DNA of 64,000 nt, taken from Candidatus Dojkabacteria bacterium. Its GTDB lineage: Bacteria > Patescibacteriota > Dojkabacteria > B142 > OLB20. Where the stretch lies: the NCBI GenBank assembly GCA_035444565.1, contig DAOMOX010000001.1:450335-514334 (forward strand), in the 5' to 3' direction. This document shows, in pieces, positions 21,715 to 61,796 of the stretch. The position numbers were made by a program, and so were the translations under genes. Below the pieces are notes generated by a model that saw only the letters and a program-made list of their open reading frames with translations, ran no database searches and had not been told where the DNA came from. The stretch's first letter is position 1, and the number at the start of each line of letters is the position of its first letter.

Positions 21715-22191
21715 ATGAATAAGGACCTAACAATTGATTTTGGTGCCTCAATGTTAAATATTCGTGTACTTCTCCTGATTAAATACAAAGGGGGATATTT
21801 GTTTGAGTTAAACACAGATGATTACTATTTTGCTATTGGTGGTAGAGTTAAGTTCGGAGAGTCATCCTCAGAAGCTGCAAAGAGAGAATTGAAAGAAGAG
21901 TTGGATTATAATGATTTAGAATTAGAACTAATTGGTTTAATCGAGAATTTCTTCGTAATAGGTGAAAAATCGGTTCATGAGGTGAACTTTGTTTATGGTG
22001 GGGCGATAAAAGATGAAATTGACTTCAATAATTTAAAATCAAATCATAAAGGTTTTAGCTCCCTTTTACCAGAAGATGTTATGACTAGCGATGTAAGACC
22101 AAAAGTATTAAAAGAGCTTATCCCAAAGCTATTAAGTAATTATGACGAGATTGGAGAGTTTATACATTTGGTGAATAGGGATTCAGCATGA
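21715..22191 (+). CDS. Nudix-fold hydrolase (divergent)
   Basis: The Nudix box is GRVKFGESSSEAAKRELKEELD (G-x5-E-x7-REUxEE, with D in place of the last G). Confidence 0.45.
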   Translation: MNKDLTIDFGASMLNIRVLLLIKYKGGYLFELNTDDYYFAIGGRVKFGESSSEAAKRELKEELDYNDLELELIGLIENFFVIGEKSVHEVNFVYGGAIKDEIDFNNLKSNHKGFSSLLPEDVMTSDVRPKVLKELIPKLLSNYDEIGEFIHLVNRDSA

Positions 22192-22944: not shown

Positions 22945-23029
22945 CGGAGAGGACAGGATTCGAACCTGCGGTCCCTTGCGAGACACTTCGTTAGCAGTGA
23001 AGCGCTTTCGACCACTCAGCCACCTCTCC
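22945..23029 (-). tRNA. tRNA-Ser (anticodon GCU)
   Basis: GGAGAGGTGGCTGAGTGGTCGAAAGCGCTTCACTGCTAACGAAGTGTCTCGCAAGGGACCGCAGGTTCGAATCCTGTCCTCTCCG. It has a 7-bp acceptor, a 3-bp D stem with a long loop, the anticodon loop CUGCUAA (U33, A37), a long variable arm and a TTCGAAT T-loop. CCA is not encoded. Confidence 0.8.
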
Positions 23030-23266
23030 GTTTAGTATTTTTTTAAATCCATTTCCACCTTTGTATGATTTTACCAGTTTCTCATAATCATAGGCATCTT
23101 TACTTGACTCGAACTCTCTATACATAAATAACGCCCAAGGCTTGTATCGAAAAACAAATCTGCGCTTATCAGTCCCATTGTGATGTTTTAGCCGTTTAGC
23201 CAAATCTTTAGTACAGCCAATATAGTACTTGTTATCAATGTTTTTTAAAATCTAAACATAATGCAT
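22991..23266 (-). pseudogene. GIY-YIG nuclease (YhbQ/UPF0213-like), copy 1, with an in-frame TAG at codon 5 and a 3' end overlapping the tRNA-Ser 5' end
   Basis: MHYV-TAG-ILKNIDNKYYIGCTKDLAKRLKHHNG...PWALFMYREF...EKLVKSYK matches the YhbQ GIY-YIG pattern (..wylYllr...g.lYtGiT.dl.rRl.qH..G). The last codons (..NGEVAE) are encoded by the acceptor/D-arm of the tRNA. Confidence 0.5.
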
Positions 23267-23643
23267 AGATTTGAAGCACGCCTTTAGCAGTATAAGCTTT
23301 CGACTTCACCCCGCCCTGGCGGGGCAAGCTCAGCCACCTCTCCGTTTAGTATTTTTTTAAATCCATTTCCACCTTTGTATGATTTTACCAGTTTCTCATA
23401 ATCATAGGCATCTTTACTTGACTCGAACTCTCTATACATAAATAACGCCCAAGGCTTGTATCGAAAAACAAATCTGCGCTTATCAGTCCCATTGTGATGT
23501 TTTAGCCGTTTAGCCAAATCTTTAGTACAGCCAATATAGTACTTGTTATCAATGTTTTTTAAAATCTAAACATAATGCATAGATTTGAAGCACGCCTTTA
23601 GCAGTATAAGCTTTCGACTTCACCCCGCCCTGGCGGGGCAAGC
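23016..23643. repeat. two tandem direct repeats of 314 bp (23016-23329 and 23330-23643), with partial third and fourth copies at 23644-23658 and 23739-23762
   Basis: Visual alignment shows near-identical copies. Each unit is a tRNA-Ser 5'-end segment plus a GIY-YIG ORF plus a tRNA 5'-half mimic. Confidence 0.85.
23284..23580 (-). pseudogene. GIY-YIG nuclease, copy 2 (duplicate within the second repeat unit)
   Basis: The same ORF with the same in-frame TAG. Its C-terminus runs into the degenerate tRNA-like segment. Confidence 0.5.
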
Positions 23644-40037: not shown

Positions 40038-40544
40038 ATGGAAAAAATTGATGAATATCTGGATAAAAACCTGAATTATGTTCCTGCTGTTGCTGGATTT
40101 ATGGTTAAAGATGGGAAGGTATTACTTGGGTTGCGAAAGAAAGTTTCGAATGATTTGGGTAAAGACCTTTATGCAGGAATAGGGGGGAAAGTTGAGGTGA
40201 ATGAATCTACGGATGAATGTTTAGAAAGAGAAATATTAGAAGAAATTGGAGTAAAAGTCACCAAATATCAAAAACTTGGCCAATTAAAATATATTAATCC
40301 GCATAATCCCAAGTGGGATATGGAAGGACATTTCTATTTAATTAGAGAATGGGAAGGCGAACCGCATGAAACAGATGTTATAAAGCCAATCTGGTTTGAC
40401 ATCGAAGAAATCCCAACTGATAACATGTTTAGTGATAATAAATATTGGCTAGACTTGCTCTTCGCAGGGAAGAGCTTCGAAGGAGTATTTTTATTTGGTA
40501 GCGAAAAAAGTCAGGTGGAGGAGTATAGACTCATAGAAATATAA
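40038..40544 (+). CDS. Nudix hydrolase (MutT-like)
   Basis: The Nudix box GIGGKVEVNESTDECLEREILEEIGV is a perfect G-x5-E-x7-REUxEExGU. Confidence 0.75.
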   Translation: MEKIDEYLDKNLNYVPAVAGFMVKDGKVLLGLRKKVSNDLGKDLYAGIGGKVEVNESTDECLEREILEEIGVKVTKYQKLGQLKYINPHNPKWDMEGHFYLIREWEGEPHETDVIKPIWFDIEEIPTDNMFSDNKYWLDLLFAGKSFEGVFLFGSEKSQVEEYRLIEI

Positions 40545-40697: not shown

Positions 40698-41600
40698 ATG
40701 AAACACTTCGTTAAACTCAAGTTGTTATTCTTATTATTTATATTTGGTTTATTTTACATACTCTTCGTATATTTCAACAGCACCAACAAAGATATTAAGA
40801 ATCCACAAACAGCATTCGAGTCTTTGCAGTATCATACATGTCCTTATACATTGAAAGTGTCTGGGAAAAATATATCTGCAGATTGGATAGGTGGGGCTTA
40901 CATAGTAGGCGAGGAAGGATACTATTGGATAATTAACAATTGTGAAAAATTTATTGAGTCTAGTCCTCCCATACTCTCAAATTTAGGAATTGCCCCAATT
41001 GATTTCGAAGCCTTCGATCCTGCTACTTTAATGGCTGGTGCTTTCAGGTTCGAACAACCCAAAGATGACCGCAAACCAATTAGTTCTTTTGGAGAAGTAA
41101 AAGAATATAATTATAACTATTCTCTTTCTTTTGATTTTCTCGAACCGGGAACAGATGTAATAGCAGCATTGGATAGTGAAGTACGTGATATTTCTTTCGA
41201 TATGATTAGTTCGAATTATACATTAATATTATCTTATAACGACATTTATCAAATATATTATTCTGGTGTTTTGGACTTGCAAGTATCTGAAGGTGAAAAG
41301 GTTAAAGCTGGTCAAGTATTAGGAAAGCTGGGATTAAATGATGAAGGGGCCTTAGCAAACTTCCAGATAAGAATCTCTAAAGAAAATTTAATTAACGACT
41401 CTACATTATATTATTGTCCCCTTCAATTATTGCCCTCCGAAACCAAAGCAGAATATGAATCTAAATTAAAATTATTAATGGAAGAGTGGGAAAATTTTAT
41501 AGATAATTCAATGATTTATGAAGAGTTGGATTATTCTATACCTGGTTGTATCAATGAGTTTAAACTATACAGACCAGGGCCTGGTCCCGTTCCTCTCTAA
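40698..41600 (+). CDS. membrane-anchored M23/LytM-like domain protein (possibly catalytically degenerate)
   Basis: N-terminal TM. GTDVIAALDSEV ... VSEGEKVKAGQVLGKLG ... FQIRI resembles the M23 G.pV.A...G.V / aGq.iG.vG / HLHFEI blocks, but the His residues are replaced. Confidence 0.4.
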   Translation: MKHFVKLKLLFLLFIFGLFYILFVYFNSTNKDIKNPQTAFESLQYHTCPYTLKVSGKNISADWIGGAYIVGEEGYYWIINNCEKFIESSPPILSNLGIAPIDFEAFDPATLMAGAFRFEQPKDDRKPISSFGEVKEYNYNYSLSFDFLEPGTDVIAALDSEVRDISFDMISSNYTLILSYNDIYQIYYSGVLDLQVSEGEKVKAGQVLGKLGLNDEGALANFQIRISKENLINDSTLYYCPLQLLPSETKAEYESKLKLLMEEWENFIDNSMIYEELDYSIPGCINEFKLYRPGPGPVPL

Positions 41601-41725: not shown

Positions 41726-41968
41726 ATGTCTAGTAAGGTTCTAAATTTTTTTGAATCGGCTGGTTTTGGTGTTCTTATGGTTGTGATATTTTGTCTTATA
41801 TATTTTATCTCGACTCCTTTTGTTAAAGTATTTATGGGTGATATCAGAGAGTTTGACCAAGTGCAGACCAGTACAGTTTTAACCACAGTATATATAATGC
41901 TATTAATACTATCCCCACAAGTTTGGTTCTTCTCCACGTTATATTTCTTCGATAGAAATAAAAAATAG
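41726..41968 (+). CDS. small membrane protein, hypothetical
   Basis: 80 aa with 2 TM. The antisense ORF 41719..42003 is judged less protein-like. Confidence 0.25.
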   Translation: MSSKVLNFFESAGFGVLMVVIFCLIYFISTPFVKVFMGDIREFDQVQTSTVLTTVYIMLLILSPQVWFFSTLYFFDRNKK

Positions 41969-42009
41969 GAATTTAGAGAAATCAAGGCAATGATATAACT
42001 CATGTTAAA

Positions 42010-42417
42010 ATGAGTAAATTATTATCATTCATGGACCAATCAGAATTCGAACAACTTGTTAAGAAAGGAATAGAGGAAATTCCTCTGGAATTTAGACAGA
42101 AATTAGACAATGTTGCCATCTTCGTCTCGCCTTACCCAAATCACGAACAACAAATGAAGATAAATTTAAGACCGGGCTGGACTTTGTTTGGACTTTACGA
42201 AGGTGTGCCACTGACTAAAAGAGGTACAAACTACGCAATGGCTATGCCAGACAGGATTACAATTTTTCAAGGGCCGATTCAAAATGCTACGCGAGGAGAT
42301 GTTGATAGAATGCGTGATGTTGTGAAAAATACAGTTTGGCATGAAATCGCACACCACTTTGGGATGGATGAGAATGAAGTGCGTGAGGCTGAGAGGAAGA
42401 GAGGTGTGGGGTATTAA
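42010..42417 (+). CDS. Zincin_1 (DUF1025)-family small HExxH metallopeptidase-like protein
   Basis: VWHEIAHHFGMDENEV is the characteristic C-terminal HEIxHH motif of this ~130-aa family. Confidence 0.6.
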   Translation: MSKLLSFMDQSEFEQLVKKGIEEIPLEFRQKLDNVAIFVSPYPNHEQQMKINLRPGWTLFGLYEGVPLTKRGTNYAMAMPDRITIFQGPIQNATRGDVDRMRDVVKNTVWHEIAHHFGMDENEVREAERKRGVGY

Positions 42418-42424
42418 TTCACAC

Positions 42425-42800
42425 CTAAATAGTAATCGGGATCCCGTGCTTAAAGCACGGAATGACTGCAGGGGCTTTTGACTCTCCTCGTCACTTCGTA
42501 GTTCATCCCGAAAAGGAAATGAACGCCTTCGCGTCTCTCCGTGGTTTAACCGCGGAGTCCCATTTTTCTTCTCACTTGAACTTATAGGTCCTACGAGATC
42601 CCGTGCTTAAAGCACGGGAAGACCTCAGGGGCTTCGACTCTCCTCGTCACTTCGTAGTTCGTCCCGAAAAGGAAATGAACGCCTCCGCGTCTCTCCGCGG
42701 TTTAACCGCGGAGTCCCGTTTTTATTCTCACACGAGCATAAAGGGTATACGGGTTCCCGTGCTTAAAGCACGGGAAGACGGCGGAGTCCCGTACATCCAC
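42425..42800. repeat. GC-rich double-hairpin repeat element cluster, locus 2 (two full tandem units of ~166 bp plus a partial third)
   Basis: Unit = gatCCCGTGCttaaaGCACGGGaagacctcaggggcttcgactctcctcgtcacttcgtagttcgtcccgaaaaggaaatgaacgcctccgcgtCTCCGCGGtttaaCCGCGGAGtcccgtttttattctcac. The units start at ~42428 and ~42594. Confidence 0.7.
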
Positions 42801-42863
42801 TCAATCGACTTCTCTCCATCATGAAATTAGGAGTATAATCAAATAATAATTAATCTTCGCAAA

Positions 42864-43154
42864 ATGAAAAACGAAAACAAATATTGGTTCAAAAGAAAAA
42901 GATATGGATATGGCTGGACACCATCGAGTTTAGAAGGATGGCTGTTAATAGTAGCTTACTTGATTATAATTATTATGGGAGTCATATTATTCTCCGATAA
43001 ACTTGAATCAGGCGATACTTTGTATTCAATTGGATATCTAATTTTCATCATTACAACTACTTCAATCTTGTTACTTTTCACTGTCCGAAAAGCTCCGAAA
43101 GGCAAATGGAGATGGGGGTGGAAAGAAGGTGATGATAAAAGTGAGGATTTTTAA
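42864..43154 (+). CDS. small membrane protein, hypothetical
   Basis: 96 aa with 2 TM and a basic/acidic tail. Its stop overlaps the Nudix start (TAAATG). Confidence 0.4.
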   Translation: MKNENKYWFKRKRYGYGWTPSSLEGWLLIVAYLIIIIMGVILFSDKLESGDTLYSIGYLIFIITTTSILLLFTVRKAPKGKWRWGWKEGDDKSEDF

Positions 43155-43604
43155 ATGCAAACGAAAGATAACGCTCATTTCCACATCGTCACAGTTAAAG
43201 CATGGGTGAAGAAAGGCGATAAATATCTTTTGGCGAGAAGAGGAATGAGTGAAGTTCATATGCCAGGAGTTTGGTCCATTCCGGGCGGAAAAGTCGATGA
43301 CGATGGCGAAACAGTGAATATCTTGCAAGAAACTCTCAAAAGAGAGGTACTCGAAGAAGTTGGTGTTGAGATTACTGACGAAATTGATTTAGTTTACAAT
43401 AACTCCTTCAAACGTTCTGACGGAGCATCGGTAGTGGGACTAACTTTCCTTTGTCATTGGAAGACTGGTGAAGCACAGCCATTGGAGGAAACTTTAGAAG
43501 TAGGTTGGTTCACATTGGATGAGTTGATTGACAAGGAAGATGTAGCGGATTTTTTGAAGAGGGAGATAAGAGCTTTGGCAACTTTTGTGAATTCCTTAGA
43601 ATAG
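43155..43604 (+). CDS. Nudix hydrolase
   Basis: The Nudix box is GGKVDDDGETVNILQETLKREVLEEVGV. Confidence 0.75.
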   Translation: MQTKDNAHFHIVTVKAWVKKGDKYLLARRGMSEVHMPGVWSIPGGKVDDDGETVNILQETLKREVLEEVGVEITDEIDLVYNNSFKRSDGASVVGLTFLCHWKTGEAQPLEETLEVGWFTLDELIDKEDVADFLKREIRALATFVNSLE

Positions 43605-43883
43605 CCCACCTTTTGGCATTCCAGCCTCGGGTTTTCGCTTTTTCTTCTTGCCACATTTAACTTCCACAACTGGTGTAGAATTAAGCATATTCAAAGAATC
43701 CTCTGTTATGGTGTTTAAAACAATACATGCTTCTGTCCCAAAAGCTCCTAATTTTTCATATTTATCTCCTCCCCCCAATAACCAATCAGTAAGTCTAATG
43801 AAACATCTCCCGACAGGCAATATCCCTAGTTCAGTTGTTGGTGGATCAAGTTCTCCCATGAAAAATACGAAATTAAATTGCAT
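43596..43883 (-). CDS. small hypothetical protein with a basic C-terminus
   Basis: 95-aa ORF ending KCGKKKKRKPEAGMPKGGLF. It is chosen over the antisense 43648..43893 ORF on composition only. Confidence 0.2.
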   Translation of the reverse strand: MQFNFVFFMGELDPPTTELGILPVGRCFIRLTDWLLGGGDKYEKLGAFGTEACIVLNTITEDSLNMLNSTPVVEVKCGKKKKRKPEAGMPKGGLF

Positions 43884-43920
43884 TATACTATAGAAATTAG
43901 GTTTTTAGAGCTTTGTTAAC

Positions 43921-44095
43921 ACTTCGCGTTTCTCCGCGGTTAACCTGCCCTGCCGAAAGGGAGGGACCGCGGAGTCCCGTTATTATTCTCACTCGAACTT
44001 ATGGGACATACGGAATCCCGTGGTTAAACCACGGGATGACCTCAGGGTCCAGATTGCTTGCTTAAAGCACGGAATGACCACGGAGTCGAACATTC
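43921..44095. repeat. GC-rich hairpin repeat element cluster, locus 3 (upstream of the heliorhodopsin gene)
   Basis: tCTCCGCGGttaa[cctgccctgccgaaagggaggga]CCGCGGAGtcccgttattattctcac..aacttatggg, then CCCGTGGttaaaCCACGGGatgacctcaggg, then cttaaagcacggaatgacc. Module B carries an inverted copy of the locus-1 insert. Confidence 0.55.
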
Positions 44096-44211
44096 GCCGT
44101 TACTTCGCAGTATAAGTACGAAAAGAACCAAGAATTCATATTCAAATGTTGAGTATTGTCATCCCCTCACCAATATTATAATATACCAATATAATTCATT
44201 ATTTATCCAAA

Positions 44212-44991
44212 ATGAAACTAACGGATTCCCCACAAACGTATCGTAAGCTTAAATTGTACAATCTCGTTATGGGATTTCTACATCTTTTGCAAGGTGTTTT
44301 GATGGTCGTTGTCAGTAATGACACATCAGCGAAGTTAACTACTGAGTTTTTGAAGTTTGATACACAGGCGATGCAGGTATTGCAAGAGAAAGAGGTCCTC
44401 TTTGAATTGCCATTAGGTTATTCAGTAGCAGTTTTCCTGTTTATGTCCGCTTTGGCTCATTTCATTATTGGCACAGTATATTTCCCCAAATATGTTGAAA
44501 ATCTTAAAAAAGGTGCTAATTACGCTAGATGGATTGAATATGCATTTAGTTCGTCATGGATGATTGTGATTATCGGGATTTTGGTTGGAATGTTTGATGC
44601 CCCAAGTTTGATTTTACTGTTCTTCTTGAACATGATGATGATTTTGTTTGGATATGTTATGGAATTGCATAATCAAACGACATCCAAGACAGATTGGACA
44701 TCATTCATCTATGGTTGTATCGCAGGTGCAGTTCCTTGGGTAGTGATGGGTTGGTATTTCTATGGGGCAGTTCAAAACACAAATGAAGTCGCAGTTGTTC
44801 CAAACTTTGTTTACGGAATTTTCATCTCGCTACTAGTCTTCTTCAATGTTTTCGCTATCAATATGATCCTGCAATACAAAAGAGTTGGAAGATGGAAAAA
44901 TTATCTTTTTGGAGAGGTAGTCTATATTGCTCTAAGTTTAGTAGCTAAATCATTACTAGCTTGGCAAGTATGGAGTGGGACACTTCGCTAG
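44212..44991 (+). CDS. heliorhodopsin (7-TM microbial rhodopsin with inverted topology)
   Basis: 259 aa with 7 TM. Near-collinear motif identity with the type heliorhodopsin 48C12 as recalled: LYNLVMGFLHLLQG, RWIEYAFSSSWMIV, FIYGCIAGAVPW, VPNFVYGIFISLLVFFN, and QYKRVGRWKNYLFGEVVYIALSLVAKSLLAWQVWSGTL with the TM7 Schiff-base Lys (SLVAKS). Confidence 0.85.
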   Translation: MKLTDSPQTYRKLKLYNLVMGFLHLLQGVLMVVVSNDTSAKLTTEFLKFDTQAMQVLQEKEVLFELPLGYSVAVFLFMSALAHFIIGTVYFPKYVENLKKGANYARWIEYAFSSSWMIVIIGILVGMFDAPSLILLFFLNMMMILFGYVMELHNQTTSKTDWTSFIYGCIAGAVPWVVMGWYFYGAVQNTNEVAVVPNFVYGIFISLLVFFNVFAINMILQYKRVGRWKNYLFGEVVYIALSLVAKSLLAWQVWSGTLR

Positions 44992-45584
44992 GCTTTTTTG
45001 TGAAGAGCCCAGTAGTACCTATGAAATACTGGGCGAATTAGCAGATGCGTTATGAAAGAAAATAAAATAAATTGCATTATCATTACAAACTGATCAGCTA
45101 GTAACTTTGTATCTGCACCGATAAAGATTGCGAACAATATTAGAAATAAACTAATCCCAATTTGAACAAAGTACTTCACAGGTAATTTATTCATTAACCA
45201 GGGTTCTTCCCCAAACCACCATACAGCTTTCGGAACAAATTTCTCCCAACCCTAATAAGGATTTAAAATAAACCATAGCAAATCCCAGAACATTGTCCAA
45301 ACTAAATAAATTGCCAAAAGTTCCAATTCGGCAATTAATGTAAATTCAATCCCGAAAAAGAAAGGAGAGTGCATAAAAAGAAATAGAAAGATATTTAAGA
45401 ACAAGTGATATCCAGTTAGAACTTTAGCACCTGTAAAAAGTCGAAATATTTTAGGAGGCATAAATTCTCTGCTCCACGTCGCGCTTTTTTCTGCCCATCC
45501 ATACTTACCTTCAAGCTCAATCTCAAATAGAGCAATGCTTAGTGCAACACAAAACCAGAATAGTGAAATTATCAACATATACAT
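44988..45584 (-). CDS. membrane protein encoded as two in-frame ORFs separated by a single TAG (110 aa, then TAG at 45252-45254, then 19 codons, then the 68-aa ORF)
   Basis: ..WFILNPY-TAG-GWEKFVPKAVWWFGEEPWLMNKLPVKYFVQIG.. all lie in one frame. Hydrophobic helices lie on both sides. It could be one interrupted gene or two adjacent genes. Confidence 0.35.
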
Positions 45585-45694
45585 TTATTAATTTCTTAAT
45601 AATACAAAAATAACTTTTTTAACACAAAAATAGATATGTGGTATATAATATTTATATAGTTAAGTTGTTTTATTTTATTTATTAATTATTTAAT

Positions 45695-46393
45695 ATGAAA
45701 TTTTTAAAAATACAAGCAGTAATAATGGCATTGGTTTTAGTTACCATTCCTTTCTTAGGAATTAAAGACGTCAATGCATTCACAAGTTATAAAAGGACCG
45801 AGGGATACAACATCACTCTTGAAAGACAAGCAGTTGTGGGTAAAGGTGACAAATTATCACTTGAAGCAAAATTCTTCAATTCACAAAATGCAGACAGCTA
45901 CAAATGGAATTGGAATATTTGTGGAACAAAATCTACAACAACTACCACTACTTGGTATGCTAAGAAAAACTTTACATTTAAAAATGTCGGCAACTGTGTA
46001 GTTACAGTCGATGGTCAGGCTATTTATGAAGCAAAGATGGTGAATGGTCAACCTACAGATGGAGTGATTATTCCAGGAACTGTTACAGACACAGTAAAGG
46101 TTCTTCCTTCAGAAACAGTAACAGTAAACATAGCAGGACCTTCTAGTGCAAAAGTAGGTCAGACATTTTGGCTAGAATCTGCTTATAGTGGAGCAAGTAA
46201 CTATAATAAATTGAACTGGAAATGGAGTTCAAAAGGAGTATGTAAGGGAACAAGTGAATGGGGTCAACCTACAACCAAAATTGGTGAGACCGGTGATTCA
46301 AAGGGAACATGTACAAAAACTCTTAATTTAAGAGTTGAGTATCCAAATAAAGTCGTAAAAGGTGTTGCAGTGAAGAATATTAGTATTTACTAA
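45695..46393 (+). CDS. secreted protein with two W-x-W / paired-Cys beta-sandwich-like repeats
   Basis: Signal peptide. Repeats: YKWNWNICGTKST..NCVVTVDG and NKLNWKWSSKGVCKGT..GTCTKTLNL. Confidence 0.45.
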   Translation: MKFLKIQAVIMALVLVTIPFLGIKDVNAFTSYKRTEGYNITLERQAVVGKGDKLSLEAKFFNSQNADSYKWNWNICGTKSTTTTTTWYAKKNFTFKNVGNCVVTVDGQAIYEAKMVNGQPTDGVIIPGTVTDTVKVLPSETVTVNIAGPSSAKVGQTFWLESAYSGASNYNKLNWKWSSKGVCKGTSEWGQPTTKIGETGDSKGTCTKTLNLRVEYPNKVVKGVAVKNISIY

Positions 46394-46410
46394 TAGCTAA
46401 AGAAAAGATT

Positions 46411-46439
46411 AAAAGGGCTCCTTAGGGAGCCCTTTTTTG
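46411..46439 (+). terminator. rho-independent terminator
   Basis: aaaagggctcc-ttag-ggagccc followed by tttttt. Confidence 0.7.
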
Positions 46440-46477
46440 TTGCATAAGCTATAATCTTATAAATTATCAATCTAAGC

Positions 46478-47161
46478 ATGGATAATGTCGATAAATATGC
46501 GAAAACCCTCTGGGATTATCACCACTTAAATCATGAAGTTAAGAAGGCGGATATATTGATGTGTTTTACATCTCTAGATTTATCGGTTGCCAAATACTGT
46601 GCTAAATTATTTCATAAAAACTATGCACCTCTGGTTTTAATCTCTGGTGGAAATGCTACCAATAAATGGATTCCAGACGAGGAAAATTTACAGCGTACAA
46701 ATTGGGGTACTGATTCGGAGGCAGAGAAATATTATGAAGTAGTTCTCGAGAATGGTGTCCCAAAGGAATCAATTTTGCTCGAAACCAAATCGACAAATTC
46801 TGGGGAAAACGTTACTTTCTCATATGAAATTCTCAAAGAGAAAAATTTAATTCCTAGAGCAGTGATATTAGTTCATAAACCTACTATGGAAAGAAGGGCA
46901 TATGCTGTTTTTAAGAACTATTGGCCTATTAAAAATACTAAATTGATGGTAACTTCAATGCCTATCACTTATGAGGATTACGTAGGGAAAGTAATTGATC
47001 GAGATGTAATAATTAATATTATGGTCGGAGACCTTCAAAGAATCAAATTGTATCCAGAAATGGGTTTTCAAGTTAATCAAGAAATTCCTGATGAAGTCTC
47101 GGTTGCATACGAGGAATTAGTTAAACGAGGTTACGATAAACATTTAATCGCGAAGAAATGA
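46478..47161 (+). CDS. DUF218 (YdcF/ElyC-like) domain protein
   Basis: ADILMCFTSLD...PLVLISGGNA...SEAEKYYEVVLENGVPKESILLETKSTNSGENVTFS...AVILVHKPTMERRA matches the DUF218 pattern (..ivVLGg....SGG....sEA..m...l...Gvp...i..E..S.nT.eNa...lVTs..Hm.R). Confidence 0.55.
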   Translation: MDNVDKYAKTLWDYHHLNHEVKKADILMCFTSLDLSVAKYCAKLFHKNYAPLVLISGGNATNKWIPDEENLQRTNWGTDSEAEKYYEVVLENGVPKESILLETKSTNSGENVTFSYEILKEKNLIPRAVILVHKPTMERRAYAVFKNYWPIKNTKLMVTSMPITYEDYVGKVIDRDVIINIMVGDLQRIKLYPEMGFQVNQEIPDEVSVAYEELVKRGYDKHLIAKK

Positions 47162-47200
47162 ATCACTGATAAGTGTATAATTAATAAAATATTTCATATC

Positions 47201-47662
47201 ATGAACACTTTCAATAACGTAATATTCGGACAAAAAGCTTTTATCATTAACGATGAAGGGGAGATTTTAATTGTTAAACGCGACAAAGAATTAATTTATG
47301 TAAATAAATGGGATGTGCCAGGTGGAAAACTAGATAATGATGAAACTTTGTTTGAGGCCCTGAATCGTGAAATTAAAGAGGAAGTTGGTCTAAAATTAGA
47401 TAAAATAATCTGTACATTATCCAGCTCGAAGTTCAAAGGTAAACTTGGAAATGACCTAATTGTATATAGAAATATTTATTTATGTAGTGCCAAAGGAAAA
47501 GTAGAATTAAGCGCAGAACATTCTGAATATAAATGGGTAAAGCCAGAAGATTTGTCTAATTATGAATTTGCAGATGACAAAGATTTAGCTGATATCATAA
47601 AGTCGCTTCCAGAAATTCTATTAAATTTAAATACAAATATTTCATATTCAAAATTAATTTAA
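47201..47662 (+). CDS. Nudix hydrolase
   Basis: The Nudix box is GGKLDNDETLFEALNREIKEEVGL. Confidence 0.65.
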   Translation: MNTFNNVIFGQKAFIINDEGEILIVKRDKELIYVNKWDVPGGKLDNDETLFEALNREIKEEVGLKLDKIICTLSSSKFKGKLGNDLIVYRNIYLCSAKGKVELSAEHSEYKWVKPEDLSNYEFADDKDLADIIKSLPEILLNLNTNISYSKLI

Positions 47663-47669
47663 AAAAGCT

Positions 47670-48611
47670 ATGGACGAAGGATCACAAAAGGCAAAATCAA
47701 TGTTTATCAAACTTGCAATAGTAGTGGTAATACTATTGACATTATTGTGTATTGGGATATTTTTACTTATGTCACGATTGGGTGGTGGTTTTCTAAATAG
47801 ACAGGAAGATTTAAATACAGCCCCTACGACTACACCTATCATCGGTTTAACTCCGACGATTATCGACTTTTCAAGTAGATGGACAAAGTATATCGACCGT
47901 GCGTATTTGTATAAGTTTGATATTCAACAGTCGTGGGAAATTGATTATGACGCACCAGAAGATGATGTTTTATTCATTGCGGACGATGAAAGCTCCCTAG
48001 GTGTGAGAGCAGTTCAGCATAATTACGAAACTGTAGACGATTATGTATTATCTTTAGATATTGAAAATGCTACTGCAAATGCGGGATTGCCAGCAGTAAT
48101 TGTGGAATGGTCGAATATCTACAAAATCGATCAGGATGCAGAAGTGATTAGGCGAAAAGAGAAAATTGTCGAAGATGACAAAGTAGTGATTCGTAATTAT
48201 CTGATGAAAGAAGAATACATCTTTATTTTCACGACTTATTCCTTAACAAACGAAACTGCTGAGACAAGTGAAATGTTCCTCGAATTTCTAAATGTAATAG
48301 GAACGTTTGAATATAAGACAGATCGTTTTGAAGCAGAGGGTACAATAGTAACGGGAGAGGGTGCGGGCAAACCTCAGTGTCCAGATGGATATTATCTTAA
48401 AATTGAAGGCTCATATTTGAGATCGAGTAATAGTTCACTTTTACTTCGTAGTATTACCCCGGGAGATGGAAACGAATATCCATTATTTCAGAATAGGAAT
48501 TTACTCGGTCAGAGTGTGAAAATAAATGCAATCTATGATACTGAAAAAATCTTATGCAGAGGTTTAAGTTGTGATTGCGAAGACTATTTACTCATTGAGA
48601 GTTTTGAATAA
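47670..48611 (+). CDS. membrane-anchored extracytoplasmic protein, hypothetical
   Basis: N-terminal TM and a 270-aa soluble domain with CxC/C..C near the C-terminus. Confidence 0.4.
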   Translation: MDEGSQKAKSMFIKLAIVVVILLTLLCIGIFLLMSRLGGGFLNRQEDLNTAPTTTPIIGLTPTIIDFSSRWTKYIDRAYLYKFDIQQSWEIDYDAPEDDVLFIADDESSLGVRAVQHNYETVDDYVLSLDIENATANAGLPAVIVEWSNIYKIDQDAEVIRRKEKIVEDDKVVIRNYLMKEEYIFIFTTYSLTNETAETSEMFLEFLNVIGTFEYKTDRFEAEGTIVTGEGAGKPQCPDGYYLKIEGSYLRSSNSSLLLRSITPGDGNEYPLFQNRNLLGQSVKINAIYDTEKILCRGLSCDCEDYLLIESFE

Positions 48612-49400
48612 ATGAACTTGATAAAAGAATCTCTCAATCTAGATTTTAAATTCTTGTTAATAAGCGAGATTAGCTTATTAGATAGATTCAATCTAATTAT
48701 AAAAAAATACCTGTATTTTATTCTCAGGTTATTGGGAGCAAACAAAAGAAATCACGGGAAATTTCTAGGTAAAGAATTCACTTTTCCCAATAAGTATGGG
48801 TATGTTGGTTTACAAAGAGTAATTGTTGATAATATTTTTCTAAAAAAATATCTACCTGAGAGAATAAGCGTTGTAGATATTGGTGCGCATGCGGGGGAAT
48901 TTGCCTTTTTTCTTGAAAAAATTATCAATGCAAAAAAAGTTGCAAGCGTGGAGCCATTTCAGACTACTTTTGAAATTCTAAAGAAGAATTTCCCTAATAA
49001 CCAAAATTTTCAATATGCGATAACAAACAAAGAAGATGTTGAATTGTATATCTCAGAAATAAGTACACAACTGAACTCTTTATTTCCAGATGATTCCAGG
49101 AAACAAAATCAAAAAATAAAAGTCCCTTCAATTACATTGAGTAAATTTGTTTCAGATGAAGTTAAAGGGGAGTTTCATTTATTAAAAATTGATACTGAGG
49201 GTTCAGAATACAATGTATTAAATAGTGGATTAGATGTAATCAATAAGTTTAAATATCTTCTTGTTGAAATTGAATTAGAGAGAGAAGGGTATCTAAAAAT
49301 ATTAGAACTTCTTAGCGGACAGAAAAATTATAAATTGATTGCAATGGGTGACTACAAACAAGGTCAGCGAGCTGTTGATGTCTTGGTGAAGAAAAACTAA
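48612..49400 (+). CDS. FkbM-family SAM-dependent methyltransferase
   Basis: VVDIGAHAGEFAFFLEK (motif I), ..VEPFQTTFEILKKN.., and LLKIDTEGSEYNVL (the FkbM hallmark lKiDvEGaE). Confidence 0.75.
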   Translation: MNLIKESLNLDFKFLLISEISLLDRFNLIIKKYLYFILRLLGANKRNHGKFLGKEFTFPNKYGYVGLQRVIVDNIFLKKYLPERISVVDIGAHAGEFAFFLEKIINAKKVASVEPFQTTFEILKKNFPNNQNFQYAITNKEDVELYISEISTQLNSLFPDDSRKQNQKIKVPSITLSKFVSDEVKGEFHLLKIDTEGSEYNVLNSGLDVINKFKYLLVEIELEREGYLKILELLSGQKNYKLIAMGDYKQGQRAVDVLVKKN

Positions 49401-49475
49401 GCTGGATATAAAATAGTTCTACTTTTCTCTTGAAATTCGCTATACTGATAGCAAATATTATTCGACTGCCCAGTC

Positions 49476-50036
49476 ATGGTTCAAAAAAAAGGCTTTAACC
49501 TTCTCAAAACTCAAGTAGAACCACAAACTATATGGACTAAAATCTACAAGTGGACCACTACCACTGCAAGAGCAATTATGGTCTTGGTAGAATTAATCAT
49601 TGTTGTAGCATTTGGTTTCAGAGTCGTGGTAGATCTACAATTCAAAAACTTCAACAAGGACATCGCCGTAAAAGAAGAAATAATGTCCGTATTACAAGAG
49701 AGCGAAACAAGACTTCGATCTACTCAAGACCGGATAGCTTTGTATGAGCAGTTATGGAGGAATACACCATATTTCAGTAATGTATACTTAGAGGTTTCAA
49801 AGATTATTCCATTAACTGTAGAGGAACTAAATATCCAAATTGTGAATGGTGAGATTACAATTCGTGGTTTTGCTAGTACTGAGACAATAGCTACGATAGA
49901 GAGCGGTTTCAAAAATTCTAGTCTGTTCACTCAAACAGAATTATCTAATATTGAATCACAAGGAAATAGTACGGATAGTTTCGTAATTAAATCTAAACTA
50001 AATAATTTACCTATGCGAAGTGAGGTATTATTCTAA
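49476..50036 (+). CDS. PilN-like type IV pilus/competence assembly protein (tentative)
   Basis: The N-terminal GFNLLKTQVE resembles the PilN INLLP motif. There is a single TM (IMVLVELIIVVAFGF) and a coiled-coil plus beta periplasmic domain. Confidence 0.35.
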   Translation: MVQKKGFNLLKTQVEPQTIWTKIYKWTTTTARAIMVLVELIIVVAFGFRVVVDLQFKNFNKDIAVKEEIMSVLQESETRLRSTQDRIALYEQLWRNTPYFSNVYLEVSKIIPLTVEELNIQIVNGEITIRGFASTETIATIESGFKNSSLFTQTELSNIESQGNSTDSFVIKSKLNNLPMRSEVLF

Positions 50037-50876: not shown

Positions 50877-50910
50877 AATATCACTTTAAATTCCCAATTA
50901 TTTAATAATT

Positions 50911-51861: not shown

Positions 51862-51890
51862 TATAGTGATTAGACATTTATAAAAATAAT

Positions 51891-52829: not shown

Positions 52830-52843
52830 CATTTACTCATAAA

Positions 52844-58511: not shown

Positions 58512-61500
58512 TTAGTCAGGCCACCTACTATACATAATTGTTTCCGCTTCTCCTTCTCTTTTCGGTAAAGACTGCCAGATTTTCTCAGTTAGAAATGGAA
58601 TAAAAGGATGTAACAATTTCAGATATGTTTCTAGAGAATATAGTATCAACCATTGGGCTGTAAATCTTGATTTTGACTCCTCTTCTGATGTGTTGATTGG
58701 GTTTCCTTCACGATCTTTTGTGTAAAGTCTAGTTTTGATTTTTTCCAGATAAATATCAGCGAAATAATGCCAGAATGATTCATAAAGTTCGTCAGCGGCG
58801 ATTCCAAATTTAAATTCGTTCAATCTCCTGGTAGTTTCTTCAATTAGTTTTTCAACATGATCCAACATTTCAGTATCATCTTGTGTGAACTCTAATTCGG
58901 ACCTGTCCGAATTAATCAATTTGTCAGCTTTATCTTCGATGTTAAAGAGTACAAACTTGGATGCATTCCAGATTTTATTGCAGAAGTTGCGGTTAGATGA
59001 TACTTTCTCTTCATAAAGACGATAATTTTGACCGGCTGAGTTACCTTTGACAAAGCTATATCTCAATGCATCTGTTCCATATTTTTGCATCATTTCGAAA
59101 GGATCGATACCATTACCTTTGGATTTGCTCATTTTAATTCCATTCTTATCAAGTACCAACCCATGTAGATACACGTCTTTGAAAGGAACAATTTGCTCGT
59201 CGGAAGTATTAGGGTTTAGCTTCTTCGCTCTATACGGATTGAGTAACATCATTCTGGTCACCCAGAATAATAAAATATCCCATCCAGTTTCCATAACTTG
59301 GGTAGGGTAGAATTGCTCAAAATCACCTTCCTTCACCATCAAAGTTAGATATGGCCATTGTCCAGATGAGAACCATGTATCAAGTACATCTTCGTCTTGA
59401 AGCCATTCTGATTTTATTAAGGAATAATTTCGAAGTTCCAGATTTTTTGGGTCATTTTCTCTAGATTGCTCAGGAGTTAAATTATTTAATTTTCTCTCGA
59501 ATATTCTAATTATGCCTGCATGTGTCACAACCAATGGGTTTTTATAGCCTGAGGTTTTCAACCAAATGATAAACTCTTCAATTCTCTTTTCGACTGCTTC
59601 TATTTTCTCGCCTTTTTCAAGCTCTGGTTGGAAATCCATATTATTTTTTGAAGCCTCTTCAGGATGTTTGTTAGTAAATTCTTCCCAAGTAAGCCCTTCT
59701 AAGTTGCCGAAATTCCTTTCTTTGAGTAAATCGTTCTCGATGATTTTCAATCCCAATTTCTCATTAACAATTTCAGCAGTTTGACGTGCTCTTTTTAATG
59801 GAGAGGTGATAATCACATCATATTTAGAATTGAGTTTTTCAATTGCGTTTTGAGCTTGTTTTTGACCGATGTCATTTAAATCGATATCAGTGAATCCATG
59901 GAATTTACCAAGTTTGTTGTATTCTGTCTCTCCATGTCTCAGGACTGAAATATTGATTTGTCCATTTAGATCAGAGTTTGAGTTGTTAGGATTATCATGT
60001 CCTACATGTATTAATCCCTCATAATCTTCGGGATTATTTATAATTTTGTTTCCAATTTTCTCTTTTACTTCACCTGTTTGGGTGATGTATTGCGTATGTT
60101 CGCCTTTATACCAGACAGGAACTCGATAACCCCACCATAGTTGTCTCGTGATGCACCAATCTTCCTGACTTTCCATCCATTGTAGATATGTTTTCTTTTT
60201 GCCCTCAGGCATGATTTCAGTTAATCCTTCTTCAACTAATCTTTTTGCTTCTCTTTTTAATGGTTCTGTATCCACAAACCATTGATAGGAGATAAGCGGT
60301 TCTATAGGGTGTTTGCATCTCTCACAAATTCTAATTCTGTTTTCATAATTTTCGTCTAAGTATACTAGCATTCCATTTGCTTTCATGTCTTCTAACATCA
60401 CTTTTCGTGCTTCCTTTACATTCATACCTTCATATTTGCCGGCTAGGTGATTCATTTTGCCATTGAAGTCTATGACCTGCTTCTCTGGGAAAGCTTCCTC
60501 TGGATGACGTTTGGCTATATCCCAATCTTCCGGGGAATGTGCGGGAGTGACTTTTACCATGCCAGTTCCGAAATTTTCATCGACAGCGTCATCGGCGATA
60601 ACATTTATTTTGGATGTGCCAAGTAAAGTTTTAACTTCAAATTCTTTTCCAACATACTCTTTAAATCTCTCATCGTCTGGGTCAACTGCAAGTGCTGTGT
60701 CTCCGAACTTGGTCTCCGGCCTGACTGTGCCTAGAACGAAACCATTAGTATAGAATTTGTCGTCAGGGAAGTCTTTGAAGTTTATAAAGTGAATACCCGC
60801 ATCTCTTTTTTTTGATTCAGCAACTTTCCAAAGCTTTGTTAATTCTTGATTTAAATCTCCCTCAAAATCAGGGTTAGAAAGTATTAAGCTGAATTTTTTA
60901 TTTAGCCTCATCATAATTGCATACGGTTTGCCGACTATTACATCTCCTTTAGTTAACTTTTCGTTATCATAACCAATACAATGTACAACCATTTCTCCAG
61001 TTTCAATTTGGTATCCGCCATCAATTGCGCCTATTGCAAATGGATAAATTTCTTTACCGTCCGGGCTTGATGACCTCTCAAAAATCCATTTAACTTCTTC
61101 CATTTGTGAGAAGTCATTTTTAATTCTTATCGCATCTTTTTCGGGATCTACAAATCCGTATTTAAAGTAGAAGAAAGGGGAAACTGAGTCTTTGAACTCC
61201 GTGTCGATATCTGCAAGAGCAGACTGACATCTGGGGCACCAGTTGATTATCCTTTTATCGCGATATACGAGCTTGTCCTCATACATTAACTCGAATGCCT
61301 TTAGAACTTCGTCTACAATCTTGGGTTCTAGAGTAAATAATTCTCTATCGAAATCTGCAGATAAACCAATATTTTTTTCCTGCCTACGAGCATTTTCAGA
61401 GTTTTTGATACAAAAAGCATAACAACGTTTATAGAATTCTTCTCTGCCTAATGCTTTCTTTGATAATCCTTCTTTTTCGAGTTCTTTCTCAAAAACTACT

Positions 61501-61796
61501 TCAGTCAAAATTCCTGCGTGGTCTTTTCCAGGTAGGAGCAAAACCTTTTTTCCCCTCATACGGTTGTATCTACCCATCAAATCTTGATAGGCATATCCAG
61601 ACATATGACCTAGGTGCAGATTCCCATTTGCATTTGGAGGAGGTAGGACAATTGAAAAAGTTTCTCGATCTATGTCGTTGGCGGTCGATAATTTTTTTTC
61701 AGATTTGTATTCGGGCGAATAGAATCTATTCTCAAGCCAAAAAGCTAAAATTTCCTCTTCAGTTGATTGTGGTTGATATGGTCCTTTGGGAAGCAT
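58512..61796 (-). CDS. valS: valyl-tRNA synthetase with an inserted histidine-phosphatase (PGAM-like) domain
   Basis: HIGH (NANGNLHLGHMSGY), the editing domain TVRPETKFGDTALAVDPDDERF, WWGYRVPVWY, DVLDTWFSSGQWPY, and KMSKS (GIKMSKSKGN). It is 1094 aa, against ~880 typical. Confidence 0.95.
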   Translation of the reverse strand: MLPKGPYQPQSTEEEILAFWLENRFYSPEYKSEKKLSTANDIDRETFSIVLPPPNANGNLHLGHMSGYAYQDLMGRYNRMRGKKVLLLPGKDHAGILTEVVFEKELEKEGLSKKALGREEFYKRCYAFCIKNSENARRQEKNIGLSADFDRELFTLEPKIVDEVLKAFELMYEDKLVYRDKRIINWCPRCQSALADIDTEFKDSVSPFFYFKYGFVDPEKDAIRIKNDFSQMEEVKWIFERSSSPDGKEIYPFAIGAIDGGYQIETGEMVVHCIGYDNEKLTKGDVIVGKPYAIMMRLNKKFSLILSNPDFEGDLNQELTKLWKVAESKKRDAGIHFINFKDFPDDKFYTNGFVLGTVRPETKFGDTALAVDPDDERFKEYVGKEFEVKTLLGTSKINVIADDAVDENFGTGMVKVTPAHSPEDWDIAKRHPEEAFPEKQVIDFNGKMNHLAGKYEGMNVKEARKVMLEDMKANGMLVYLDENYENRIRICERCKHPIEPLISYQWFVDTEPLKREAKRLVEEGLTEIMPEGKKKTYLQWMESQEDWCITRQLWWGYRVPVWYKGEHTQYITQTGEVKEKIGNKIINNPEDYEGLIHVGHDNPNNSNSDLNGQINISVLRHGETEYNKLGKFHGFTDIDLNDIGQKQAQNAIEKLNSKYDVIITSPLKRARQTAEIVNEKLGLKIIENDLLKERNFGNLEGLTWEEFTNKHPEEASKNNMDFQPELEKGEKIEAVEKRIEEFIIWLKTSGYKNPLVVTHAGIIRIFERKLNNLTPEQSRENDPKNLELRNYSLIKSEWLQDEDVLDTWFSSGQWPYLTLMVKEGDFEQFYPTQVMETGWDILLFWVTRMMLLNPYRAKKLNPNTSDEQIVPFKDVYLHGLVLDKNGIKMSKSKGNGIDPFEMMQKYGTDALRYSFVKGNSAGQNYRLYEEKVSSNRNFCNKIWNASKFVLFNIEDKADKLINSDRSELEFTQDDTEMLDHVEKLIEETTRRLNEFKFGIAADELYESFWHYFADIYLEKIKTRLYTKDREGNPINTSEEESKSRFTAQWLILYSLETYLKLLHPFIPFLTEKIWQSLPKREGEAETIMYSRWPD
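59487..59960 (-). other. histidine phosphatase (phosphoglycerate-mutase family, branch 1) domain embedded in valS
   Basis: ISVLRHGETEYNKLGKFHGFTDIDLNDIGQKQA...YDVIITSPLKRARQTAEIV...ERNFGNLEGLTWEEF...AVEKRIEEFI...PLVVTHAGIIR is the full RHG...R...E...H catalytic set. It lies between the ValRS WWGYRVPVWY and DVLDTWFSS blocks. Confidence 0.8.

What the first reader, a model, noticed from the sequence alone, without database searches (positions are those of the whole stretch)
44212..44991. Heliorhodopsin gene in a small-genome, CPR-like context with no retinal-biosynthesis genes in view
The 259-aa 7-TM protein is collinear with the type heliorhodopsin as I recall it. This includes RW.EY..SSS.MIV, F..GCIAG.VPW, VP.FVYGI.ISL..FFN and the TM7 segment SLVAKS.LAWQ..SGTL with the retinal Schiff-base Lys. 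Heliorhodopsin function is still unresolved, and its occurrence in host-dependent ultrasmall bacteria implies light sensing with externally acquired retinal. No blh, crt or other carotenoid-cleavage genes occur in this 64 kb. The gene is preceded by one of the GC-rich hairpin repeat clusters (43921-44095). It is followed by a membrane protein split by an in-frame TAG.
Basis: partly seen in the sequence, partly recalled or inferred. Interest (0 to 1): 0.75.

Follow-up and report, generated by a model that had tools for sequence, protein, structure and literature searches.

The report
Known heliorhodopsin in a Dojkabacteria genome
This is a real, intact and strongly conserved gene for heliorhodopsin (an inverted light-sensing membrane protein) in a tiny-genome candidate-phylum bacterium, but the same protein is already annotated in public databases and heliorhodopsins in these bacteria were described in 2022, so it is ordinary.

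Summary
The ORF at 44212-44991 (+), 259 aa, is a heliorhodopsin. It matches Pfam PF18761 end to end (E = 7.7e-95). It matches the NCBIfam HeR equivalog at 333.8 bits against a cut-off of 100. It is 51% identical to the crystallised TaHeR.

All functional residues I checked are present: Schiff-base Lys246 in SLVAK, counterion Glu109, His24/His83 and the lateral-fenestration residues. Charge distribution supports the inverted, N-terminus-inside topology. dN/dS of about 0.016 against a strain orthologue shows strong purifying selection.

The genome is CPR. The identical protein is in NCBI nr as 'heliorhodopsin HeR [Candidatus Dojkabacteria bacterium]'. No Pfam carotenoid or retinal-synthesis family occurs in the 64 kb.

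The upstream repeat element and the downstream TAG-interrupted membrane gene are both real. The repeat belongs to a dispersed intergenic family. The TAG is a strain-specific TAC->TAG nonsense mutation in a convergent gene.

Chiriac et al. 2022 catalogued 98 heliorhodopsins in CPR, 7 of them in Dojkabacteria. Use of external retinal is already the published hypothesis (Shihoya 2019; Jaffe 2022). No conserved partner gene was found. Interest is low.

The parts
44212..44991 (+). Heliorhodopsin gene, 259 aa, 7 TM. Key residues: Schiff-base K246 in S242-L-V-A-K246, counterion E109, H24/H83, and fenestration residues F165/C169/G172/F211/A215 plus N212.
   Evidence: ORF. Pfam PF18761 E = 7.7e-95. NCBIfam NF038020 333.8 bits. 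PDB 6is6 E = 6.8e-71. Residue mapping. Hydropathy and positive-inside count. dN/dS about 0.016 against L004.
44165..44211 (+). AT-rich segment just upstream of the start codon (AATATTATAATATACCAATATAATTCATTATT...) with two TATAAT hexamers. Probably the gene's own promoter (inferred).
   Evidence: Identical in L004 and nearly identical in L005, although the DNA further upstream differs in all three. The promoter scan gives a 9/12 match at 44156-44184, which is no better than chance on its own.
43920..44095 (+). One copy, plus a partial second hairpin, of a dispersed GC-rich hairpin repeat family. It is inserted between the NUDIX gene and the heliorhodopsin gene in this strain.
   Evidence: Repeat families D1-D5. 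Palindrome and motif counts against shuffles. Alignment. Fold -76.7 kcal/mol, z = -4.2. No Rfam match. Absent at this site in L004, where the NUDIX-HeR spacer is 38 nt.
43155..43604 (+). NUDIX hydrolase gene, co-directional upstream neighbour. Context only; no functional link is shown.
   Evidence: Pfam PF00293 E = 3.9e-16. Below every NCBIfam equivalog cut-off. Same position in L004 and L005 but not in L006 or other loci.
44988..45584 (-). Convergent gene for a roughly 198-aa multi-pass membrane protein of no known family. It is interrupted by an in-frame TAG at 45252-45254 and overlaps the heliorhodopsin stop codon by 4 nt.
   Evidence: Translation. Intact orthologues in L004, L005 and L006 carry TAC (Tyr) at that codon. 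TAG is also present in L001-L003, which are independent assemblies. No Pfam or NCBIfam hit.

Best explanation
The gene encodes a functional heliorhodopsin of a Candidatus Dojkabacteria (CPR/Patescibacteria) bacterium.

Shown here:
- It is a full-length member of the family, with the retinal-binding Lys246, the single Glu109 counterion, the His24/His83 pair and the residues that line the lateral fenestration.
- Its charge distribution fits the inverted, N-terminus-inside topology.
- It is under strong purifying selection.

Inferred from characterised homologues:
- The apoprotein takes up all-trans retinal made by other organisms through the lateral fenestration. The 64 kb holds no carotenoid or retinal pathway, and CPR metabolism is minimal.
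- It forms a protonated Schiff base at K246. On green light it enters a slow photocycle in which the proton moves to the E109/His cluster without crossing the membrane.
- The long-lived state changes the activity of a partner protein by direct contact. It therefore acts as a light-dependent regulatory switch rather than an ion pump.

The partner in this lineage is not identified.
For: - Family membership: Pfam PF18761 E = 7.7e-95, full-length. NCBIfam HeR equivalog 333.8 bits against cut-off 100. 51% identity to TaHeR and 44% to 48C12 over 244 aligned residues.
- Residues: K246, S242, E109, H24, H83, R106, Y110, E151, Y231 and E235, and fenestration residues F165/C169/G172/F211/A215/N212. All are identical to 48C12, and all to TaHeR too apart from F165, which is Tyr there. 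All are conserved in 60-80 of the 80 related loci.
- Topology: seven hydrophobic segments. 13 K/R on the predicted cytoplasmic side against 4 outside for an N-in orientation.
- Selection: 89% nucleotide but 97.7% amino-acid identity to L004, dN/dS about 0.016.
- Host: the identical protein is filed as heliorhodopsin HeR of Candidatus Dojkabacteria, with a longest contig of 516 kb. The nearest loci are 98% ('bacterium isolate DTUPAT2') and 92% (Ca. Dojkabacteria HKST-UBA15) identical.
- Retinal pathway: no Blh, RPE65, phytoene synthase, phytoene desaturase or lycopene cyclase family in any ORF of 100 aa or more.
- Literature: rapid uptake of external retinal through a fenestration in TaHeR and absence of blh in rhodopsin-bearing CPR (PMC9296517, citing Shihoya 2019). 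HeRs as regulators of glutamine synthetase, photolyase and an ABC transporter (PMC9529153, PMC9769723, PMC11109279). HeRs in CPR with SLVAK as the commonest motif (PMC9166423).
Against: - Retinal binding, the photocycle and the lack of ion transport were not measured for this protein.
- Only 64 kb of the genome was inspected, so a retinal pathway elsewhere is not excluded.
- No neighbour is conserved next to HeR across 74 loci. None of the ten recurrent neighbour classes listed in PMC11109279 is adjacent here. The only two-component system lies about 33 kb away.
- The one conserved membrane-protein neighbour is knocked out by a nonsense codon in this strain.
- The closest named MAG comes from an isolate series (HKST-UBA) that I recall as activated sludge. 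I did not verify this. If correct, it is not an obviously sunlit habitat.
Confidence: 0.85

Rival explanations
1. The retinal is made by the bacterium itself, from carotenoid and blh genes that lie outside this 64-kb window.
For: Only 64 kb was examined, while the source contig may be 516 kb. Blh genes are not always next to rhodopsin genes.
Against: No such family occurs in the window. Rhodopsin-bearing Saccharibacteria (also CPR) lacked blh in high-quality bins (PMC9296517). CPR genomes generally lack isoprenoid and carotenoid pathways (established knowledge; not tested for this genome).
Confidence: 0.07
2. [quoted passage not shown]
For: One heliorhodopsin clade transports protons (PMC9448325). 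CPR have few ways to build a proton gradient.
Against: The sequence is closest to TaHeR and 48C12. These are the type prokaryotic HeRs and, from my recollection of the original reports, show no ion transport. It shares their full residue set. The transporting HeRs are a separate viral group. Their determinant residues were not mapped here.
Confidence: 0.04
3. The protein mainly serves as a two-chromophore light harvester. It would recruit an exogenous xanthophyll antenna at the lateral fenestration, as proposed in a 2025 preprint.
For: The five fenestration residues and the conserved Asn named in the preprint (10.1101/2025.11.27.691015) are all present: F165, C169, G172, F211, A215, N212. The host is monoderm-like, so external carotenoids could reach the protein.
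Against: The proposal is a preprint based on structures and docking. It does not say what the harvested energy is used for. It is compatible with, rather than an alternative to, a regulatory role.
Confidence: 0.08
4. The gene is a decaying or functionless relic in a lineage that lives in low light.
For: The neighbouring convergent gene carries a nonsense mutation. The locus sits among inserted repeats in a divergent, recombining segment.
Against: The ORF is intact and every functional residue is kept. dN/dS of about 0.016 at dS of about 0.7 shows strong constraint. The 90%-identity cluster has 22 members seen on many contigs.
Confidence: 0.02

Closest known systems
TaHeR, heliorhodopsin of Thermoplasmatales archaeon SG8-52-1 (PDB 6is6, 7clj, 7u55)
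   Same: Best solved-structure match: E = 6.8e-71, 51% identity over 244 residues. Same SLVAK Schiff-base motif, Glu counterion, His pair and Met at the 48C12-Q213 position. Same fenestration residues except F165, which is Tyr in TaHeR.
   Different: Bacterial (CPR) rather than archaeal host. The TM5-TM6 loop is 7 residues longer. Nothing about this protein has been measured.
Heliorhodopsin 48C12, the founding member (PDB 6su3, 6uh3, 9ljj)
   Same: Collinear over the whole length, E = 7.7e-57, 44% identity. Mapped equivalents: K241=K246, E107=E109, H23/H80=H24/H83, S237=S242, and fenestration F162/C166/G169/F206/A210 = F165/C169/G172/F211/A215.
   Different: Met218 in place of Gln213, as in most of the 80 related loci.
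CPR heliorhodopsins catalogued by Chiriac et al. 2022 (PMC9166423)
   Same: Same family in the same radiation. That survey reports 98 HeRs in CPR genomes, 7 of them in Dojkabacteria, with SLVAK among the commonest TM7 motifs. The present protein has SLVAK and is from Dojkabacteria.
   Different: I did not check whether this particular genome was in their data set. Of the 80 best genome loci found here, 22 carry a CPR label, so the distribution is now wider than in 2022.
Saccharibacteria type-1 rhodopsins (SacR; Jaffe et al. 2022, PMC9296517)
   Same: A rhodopsin in a CPR bacterium with no blh, proposed to use retinal from neighbouring or host cells. Fast retinal uptake is compared explicitly with heliorhodopsin.
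   Different: SacRs are type-1 outward proton pumps with normal topology and a DxxxK-type motif. The present protein is a heliorhodopsin with inverted topology and SxxxK, so it is not a member of that family.
Regulatory heliorhodopsins AbHeR, TfHeR and OcHeR (PMC9529153, PMC9769723, PMC11109279)
   Same: Same family. They supply the model of action adopted here: a light-dependent change in the activity of a bound partner.
   Different: Their partners (glutamine synthetase, photolyase, an ABC transporter) are encoded next to the HeR gene. None of these is adjacent here. The neighbours are a NUDIX hydrolase and an uncharacterised membrane protein.

Membership tests
Heliorhodopsin (type-3 rhodopsin; Pfam PF18761, NCBIfam NF038020) | Full-length profile match above the curated cut-offs | tested here: met
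   PF18761: 317.3 bits against 26.7, profile positions 1-242 of 242. NF038020 equivalog: 333.8 bits against 100, positions 1-244 of 244.
Heliorhodopsin (type-3 rhodopsin; Pfam PF18761, NCBIfam NF038020) | Seven transmembrane helices | tested here: met
   Seven hydrophobic segments at about 15-37, 62-90, 107-128, 132-153, 166-187, 197-221 and 233-254. Collinear with solved 7-TM structures 6is6 and 6su3. No structure was predicted here.
Heliorhodopsin (type-3 rhodopsin; Pfam PF18761, NCBIfam NF038020) | Inverted topology: N-terminus cytoplasmic, C-terminus outside | tested here: met
   Positive-inside rule: 13 K/R in the N-terminus and even loops against 4 in the odd loops and C-terminus. This is a prediction only, not an experiment.
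Heliorhodopsin (type-3 rhodopsin; Pfam PF18761, NCBIfam NF038020) | Retinal Schiff-base Lys in TM7 within an SxxxK motif | tested here: met
   S242-L-V-A-K246 aligns with S237/K241 of 48C12.
Heliorhodopsin (type-3 rhodopsin; Pfam PF18761, NCBIfam NF038020) | Single Glu counterion in TM3 (E107 of 48C12) with the His23/His80 pair | tested here: met
   E109, H24 and H83.
Heliorhodopsin (type-3 rhodopsin; Pfam PF18761, NCBIfam NF038020) | Lateral fenestration residues between TM5 and TM6, the proposed route for external retinal or carotenoid | tested here: met
   F165, C169, G172, F211, A215 and N212 equal 48C12 F162, C166, G169, F206, A210 and N207. The residue list is from 10.1101/2025.11.27.691015. 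Sequence conservation only.
Heliorhodopsin (type-3 rhodopsin; Pfam PF18761, NCBIfam NF038020) | Binds all-trans retinal, has a photocycle lasting seconds, and shows no net ion transport | not testable with these tools
   Needs heterologous expression and spectroscopy.
Heliorhodopsin (type-3 rhodopsin; Pfam PF18761, NCBIfam NF038020) | Host is a monoderm (the family is reported absent from diderms) | tested here: inconclusive
   The host is CPR, which the cited surveys treat as monoderm (PMC8612252). The window holds a LytR_cpsA_psr protein and no outer-membrane family. The cell envelope cannot be established from 64 kb.
Type-1 microbial rhodopsin (Pfam PF01036 Bac_rhodopsin) | Profile match to Bac_rhodopsin and a DxxxK-type TM7 motif with the N-terminus outside | tested here: not met
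   Only PF18761 is reported at E <= 0.01. The motif is SLVAK and the charge bias indicates N-in.
Candidatus Dojkabacteria (CPR/Patescibacteria) as source organism | Sequence assigned to that lineage in public records, with the nearest genomes from that lineage | tested here: met
   The identical protein is under HRN86731.1 and HRP51167.1, 'Candidatus Dojkabacteria bacterium'. The 92%-identical orthologue with conserved synteny is in Ca. Dojkabacteria HKST-UBA15. Window GC is 0.35, coding density 0.90, standard code with TGA as a stop. No rRNA or ribosomal-protein phylogeny was done.

The most novel reading that the evidence does not exclude
In this Dojkabacteria lineage the heliorhodopsin may act on the NUDIX hydrolase encoded directly upstream. 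The spacer is 38 nt in the 98%-identical relative L004. This would couple light to the clearing of damaged nucleotides. It would be a new partner class, in line with the photo-oxidative-stress idea of Bulzu et al. 2021. A variant of this reading is that, in a retinal-auxotrophic episymbiont, chromophore loading itself reports the presence of a retinal-producing host.
Probability: 0.06. Interest if true: 0.5.

Novelty: already known. Interest (0 to 1): 0.12.

Why it matters
It matters little beyond confirming a correct reading from raw sequence.

A heliorhodopsin in a metabolically minimal CPR bacterium does support the view that these cells sense light with a borrowed chromophore. That view, and the occurrence of HeRs in Dojkabacteria, are already in the literature. 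The protein is already named correctly in NCBI.

The locus could serve as one more test case for retinal uptake by CPR heliorhodopsins, or for hunting HeR partners. However, it offers no conserved partner gene to test.

Tried and rejected
- Rfam search of the whole window (gathering thresholds) and of 42380-44230 (E <= 1). The repeat elements match no known RNA family.
- Search for a conserved HeR neighbour. ORFs within three genes of HeR in 74 loci were clustered by BLASTP. The largest cluster spans 8 loci, none of them CPR. The window's neighbours recur only in the close relatives L004, L005 and L006, which is synteny by descent.
- Pfam and NCBIfam scans of the convergent 198-aa membrane protein (intact L004 copy), the 232-aa secreted protein, the 96-aa membrane protein and the 95-aa minus-strand ORF 43596..43883. 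No family was found. In particular DUF2177 and DUF2238, which are recurrent HeR neighbours in PMC11109279, were not hit.
- TAG recoding as an explanation for the split gene. Rejected because orthologues have TAC at that codon and TAG ends 11 other ORFs in the window.
- Horizontal acquisition flagged by composition. Rejected because HeR gene GC is 0.374 against 0.35 for the window.
- Paper searches for 'DTUPAT2' found nothing. A search for 'HKST-UBA' gave no paper describing the source MAG, so the habitat is not established.
- I did not run the large protein-database searches or a structure prediction. At 51% identity to a crystal structure they could not change the verdict.

Full report
**Observation.** The four quoted motifs are all in the translation. 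The window uses the standard bacterial code. TGA ends 19 of 79 ORFs, coding density is about 0.90 and GC is 0.35.

**Family.**
- Pfam assigns the protein to Heliorhodopsin PF18761 only (E = 7.7e-95, 317 bits, profile 1-242 of 242).
- NCBIfam assigns it to the HeR equivalog NF038020 (333.8 bits against a cut-off of 100).
- The best solved-structure matches are all heliorhodopsins: TaHeR 6is6 (E = 6.8e-71), 48C12 6su3/6uh3/9ljj (about 8e-57) and 9vfc (1.5e-42).
- Identity is 51% to TaHeR and 44% to 48C12 over 244 aligned residues.

**Residues.** I aligned the protein with TaHeR, 48C12 and the 80 related genomic copies.
- Schiff-base Lys is K246 (48C12 K241), in the motif S242-L-V-A-K.
- The counterion is E109 (E107).
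- H24/H83 (H23/H80), R106, Y110, E151, Y231 and E235 are all present.
- The residues that a 2025 preprint lists as lining the lateral fenestration are identical to those of 48C12: F165, C169, G172, F211, A215 and N212.

**Topology.** Hydropathy gives seven segments. For an N-in topology, the cytoplasmic side carries 13 K/R and the outside 4.

**Is it functional?** Against the orthologue in L004 the gene is 89.2% identical in DNA but 97.7% in protein. pS is 0.46, pN is 0.011 and dN/dS is about 0.016. That is strong purifying selection. Gene GC (0.374) is close to the window's 0.35.

**Host.**
- An exact-sequence look-up shows the identical protein in NCBI nr as 'heliorhodopsin HeR [Candidatus Dojkabacteria bacterium]' (HRN86731.1, HRP51167.1). 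It occurs on contigs up to 516 kb. Its 90% cluster has 22 members.
- It is also on a contig of MAG GCA_035445885.1 and in two Logan assemblies.
- A scan of one genome per species found 163 relatives. The closest are 'bacterium isolate DTUPAT2' (98%) and Ca. Dojkabacteria HKST-UBA15 (92%). A MAG labelled Saccharibacteria (73%) and CPR3 (60%) follow, then a mix of Anaerolineae, other Patescibacteria, Actinomycetota and Thermoplasmatota at 50-60%.
- By record title, 22 of the 80 best loci are CPR.
- The CPR guess is therefore right, and the organism is a Dojkabacteria (WS6) bacterium.

**Retinal synthesis.** I scanned every ORF of 100 aa or more with Pfam, or read precomputed Pfam hits for the stretch 44.2-55.3 kb. 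I found no Blh/BCD, RPE65-type oxygenase, phytoene synthase, phytoene desaturase, lycopene cyclase or polyprenyl synthase. The statement 'none in view' holds. The rest of the genome could not be inspected with these tools.

**Surroundings.**
- *Upstream gene.* A NUDIX hydrolase (43155..43604) is below all NCBIfam equivalog cut-offs. In L004 it ends 38 nt before the HeR start. In the window the gap is 607 nt.
- *Inserted DNA.* The extra sequence consists of about 300 nt with an orphan minus-strand ORF, then the repeat element at 43920-44095.
- *Repeat family.* The element belongs to a hairpin-rich family with cores CCGTGCTTAAAGCACGG and CCGCGGAGTCCCGT. It is also present at 42437-42810 and 38100-38310, always on the + strand and always intergenic. 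Counts are 11 and 6 matches against 0 and 0.04 expected. The copy folds well (z = -4.2) and matches no Rfam family.
- *Effect on assembly.* The MAG contig carrying the same gene begins 286 nt upstream of the HeR start, which corresponds to about 43926, inside the repeat.
- *Promoter region.* The last 45 nt or so before the start codon, which hold two TATAAT hexamers, are conserved in the window, L004 and L005 whatever lies upstream. This suggests the gene has its own promoter (inference).
- *Downstream gene.* The 'split membrane protein' is a convergent gene on the minus strand (44988..45584) that overlaps the HeR stop by 4 nt. The in-frame TAG at 45252-45254 is TAC (Tyr) in the intact 198-aa orthologues of L004, L005 and L006. 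It is TAG in the window and in three other assemblies. It is therefore a real, strain-specific nonsense mutation, not recoding or a sequencing error. The protein has no Pfam or NCBIfam family.

**Partner search.** I clustered the ORFs within three genes of HeR in 74 loci and found no widely shared neighbour. The window's neighbours recur only in L004, L005 and L006. The only two-component system in the window is about 33 kb away. None of the ten recurrent neighbour classes of PMC11109279 is adjacent. Within 8 kb there are two NUDIX genes, an AP_endonuc_2 protein and a DsbA/thioredoxin-like protein. This is loosely in keeping with the oxidative-stress association of Bulzu et al., but it is anecdotal.

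**Mechanism.** I commit to the following. The apoprotein acquires all-trans retinal from other cells through the fenestration and binds it at K246. After photoisomerisation the proton moves to the E109/His cluster. The protein stays in a long-lived state that modulates a bound partner. It is a light switch, not a pump.
- Shown here: family membership, residues, predicted topology, selective constraint, and absence of a retinal pathway in 64 kb.
- Inferred from homologues: retinal uptake (PMC9296517, citing Shihoya 2019) and regulation of partners (PMC9529153, PMC9769723, PMC11109279).
- The partner is unknown.
- Rivals, all judged unlikely: endogenous retinal from genes outside the window, proton transport as in viral V2HeR3 (PMC9448325), a relic gene, and a xanthophyll-antenna role (10.1101/2025.11.27.691015). 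The last is also compatible with the main explanation.

**Comparison with what is known, and novelty.**
- Chiriac et al. 2022 screened 1,326 CPR genomes. They found 115 rhodopsins, of which 98 were inferred to be heliorhodopsins: 80 in Saccharimonadia, 7 in Dojkabacteria and 3 in ABY1, with a few in other classes. SLVAK was among the commonest motifs.
- Bulzu et al. 2021 already included Patescibacteria in their HeR neighbourhood analysis.
- Jaffe et al. 2022 proposed host-derived retinal for CPR rhodopsins and drew the parallel with TaHeR.
- The exact protein is correctly named in NCBI.

The finding is a correct identification of something already known. Interest is low.

Noticed in passing
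window 58512..61796 (-): The 1094-aa valyl-tRNA-synthetase-like ORF carries a complete histidine-phosphatase domain (PF00300, E = 1.1e-42) at residues 617-792, between the two halves of the class I synthetase core. This is an unusual domain insertion in an aminoacyl-tRNA synthetase.
   Followed up: no
window 38100-38310, 42437-42810, 43920-44095 (+): A dispersed intergenic family of GC-rich hairpin repeats with a unit of about 156 nt and cores CCGTGCTTAAAGCACGG and CCGCGGAGTCCCGT. All copies are on the + strand. There is no Rfam match. Copy number differs between the window, L004 and L005, and one MAG contig breaks inside a copy.
   Followed up: partly
window 41900-45950 compared with L004: The window and the DTUPAT2 genome (L004) are 99-100% identical in DNA from about 45950 to 53150. 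They are only 78-92% identical across the Zincin-repeat-NUDIX-heliorhodopsin-membrane-protein segment; the HeR gene has dS of about 0.7. Conversely, the M23 peptidase at 40698..41600 is 100% identical in protein to L005. This mosaic pattern suggests recombination between diverged strains around the heliorhodopsin locus.
   Followed up: partly
window 45252-45254 within 44988..45584 (-): A TAC->TAG nonsense mutation truncates a conserved 198-aa membrane protein of no known family. The mutation is present in four independent assemblies of this strain and absent from L004, L005 and L006. A 68-aa ORF starting at the ATG at 45194 could still express the C-terminal third.
   Followed up: yes
window 22944-23520 (-): Two near-identical tandem ORFs (22991..23203 and 23284..23517; peptide ...KRRFVFRYKPWALFMYREFESSKDAYDYEKLVKSYKGG...) sit next to and overlap the tRNA-Ser(GCT) gene at 22944-23030. 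This looks like a duplicated small gene or mobile-element remnant at a tRNA.
   Followed up: no
loci L022, L028, L050, L030, L048, L056, L024: Heliorhodopsin genes 54-58% identical to this one lie on contigs of MAGs labelled as diderm taxa: Gammaproteobacteria (including a 668-kb contig), Kosmotogaceae, Spirochaetaceae and Anderseniella. Their GC is 0.48-0.59. Either the labels or the bins are wrong, or the 'monoderms only' rule has exceptions.
   Followed up: no
window 21715..22191, 40038..40544, 43155..43604, 47201..47662: Four separate NUDIX hydrolase genes occur in 64 kb of a reduced genome, two of them flanking the heliorhodopsin locus.
   Followed up: no
window 43596..43883 (-): A 95-aa minus-strand ORF lies in the roughly 300 nt that, together with the repeat, separate NUDIX from the heliorhodopsin gene in this strain only. 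It has no Pfam hit and no tblastn match in any of the 83 loci. The segment is bracketed by the 14-nt direct repeat AGAGCTTTGGCAAC / AGAGCTTTGTTAAC (D12).
   Followed up: partly
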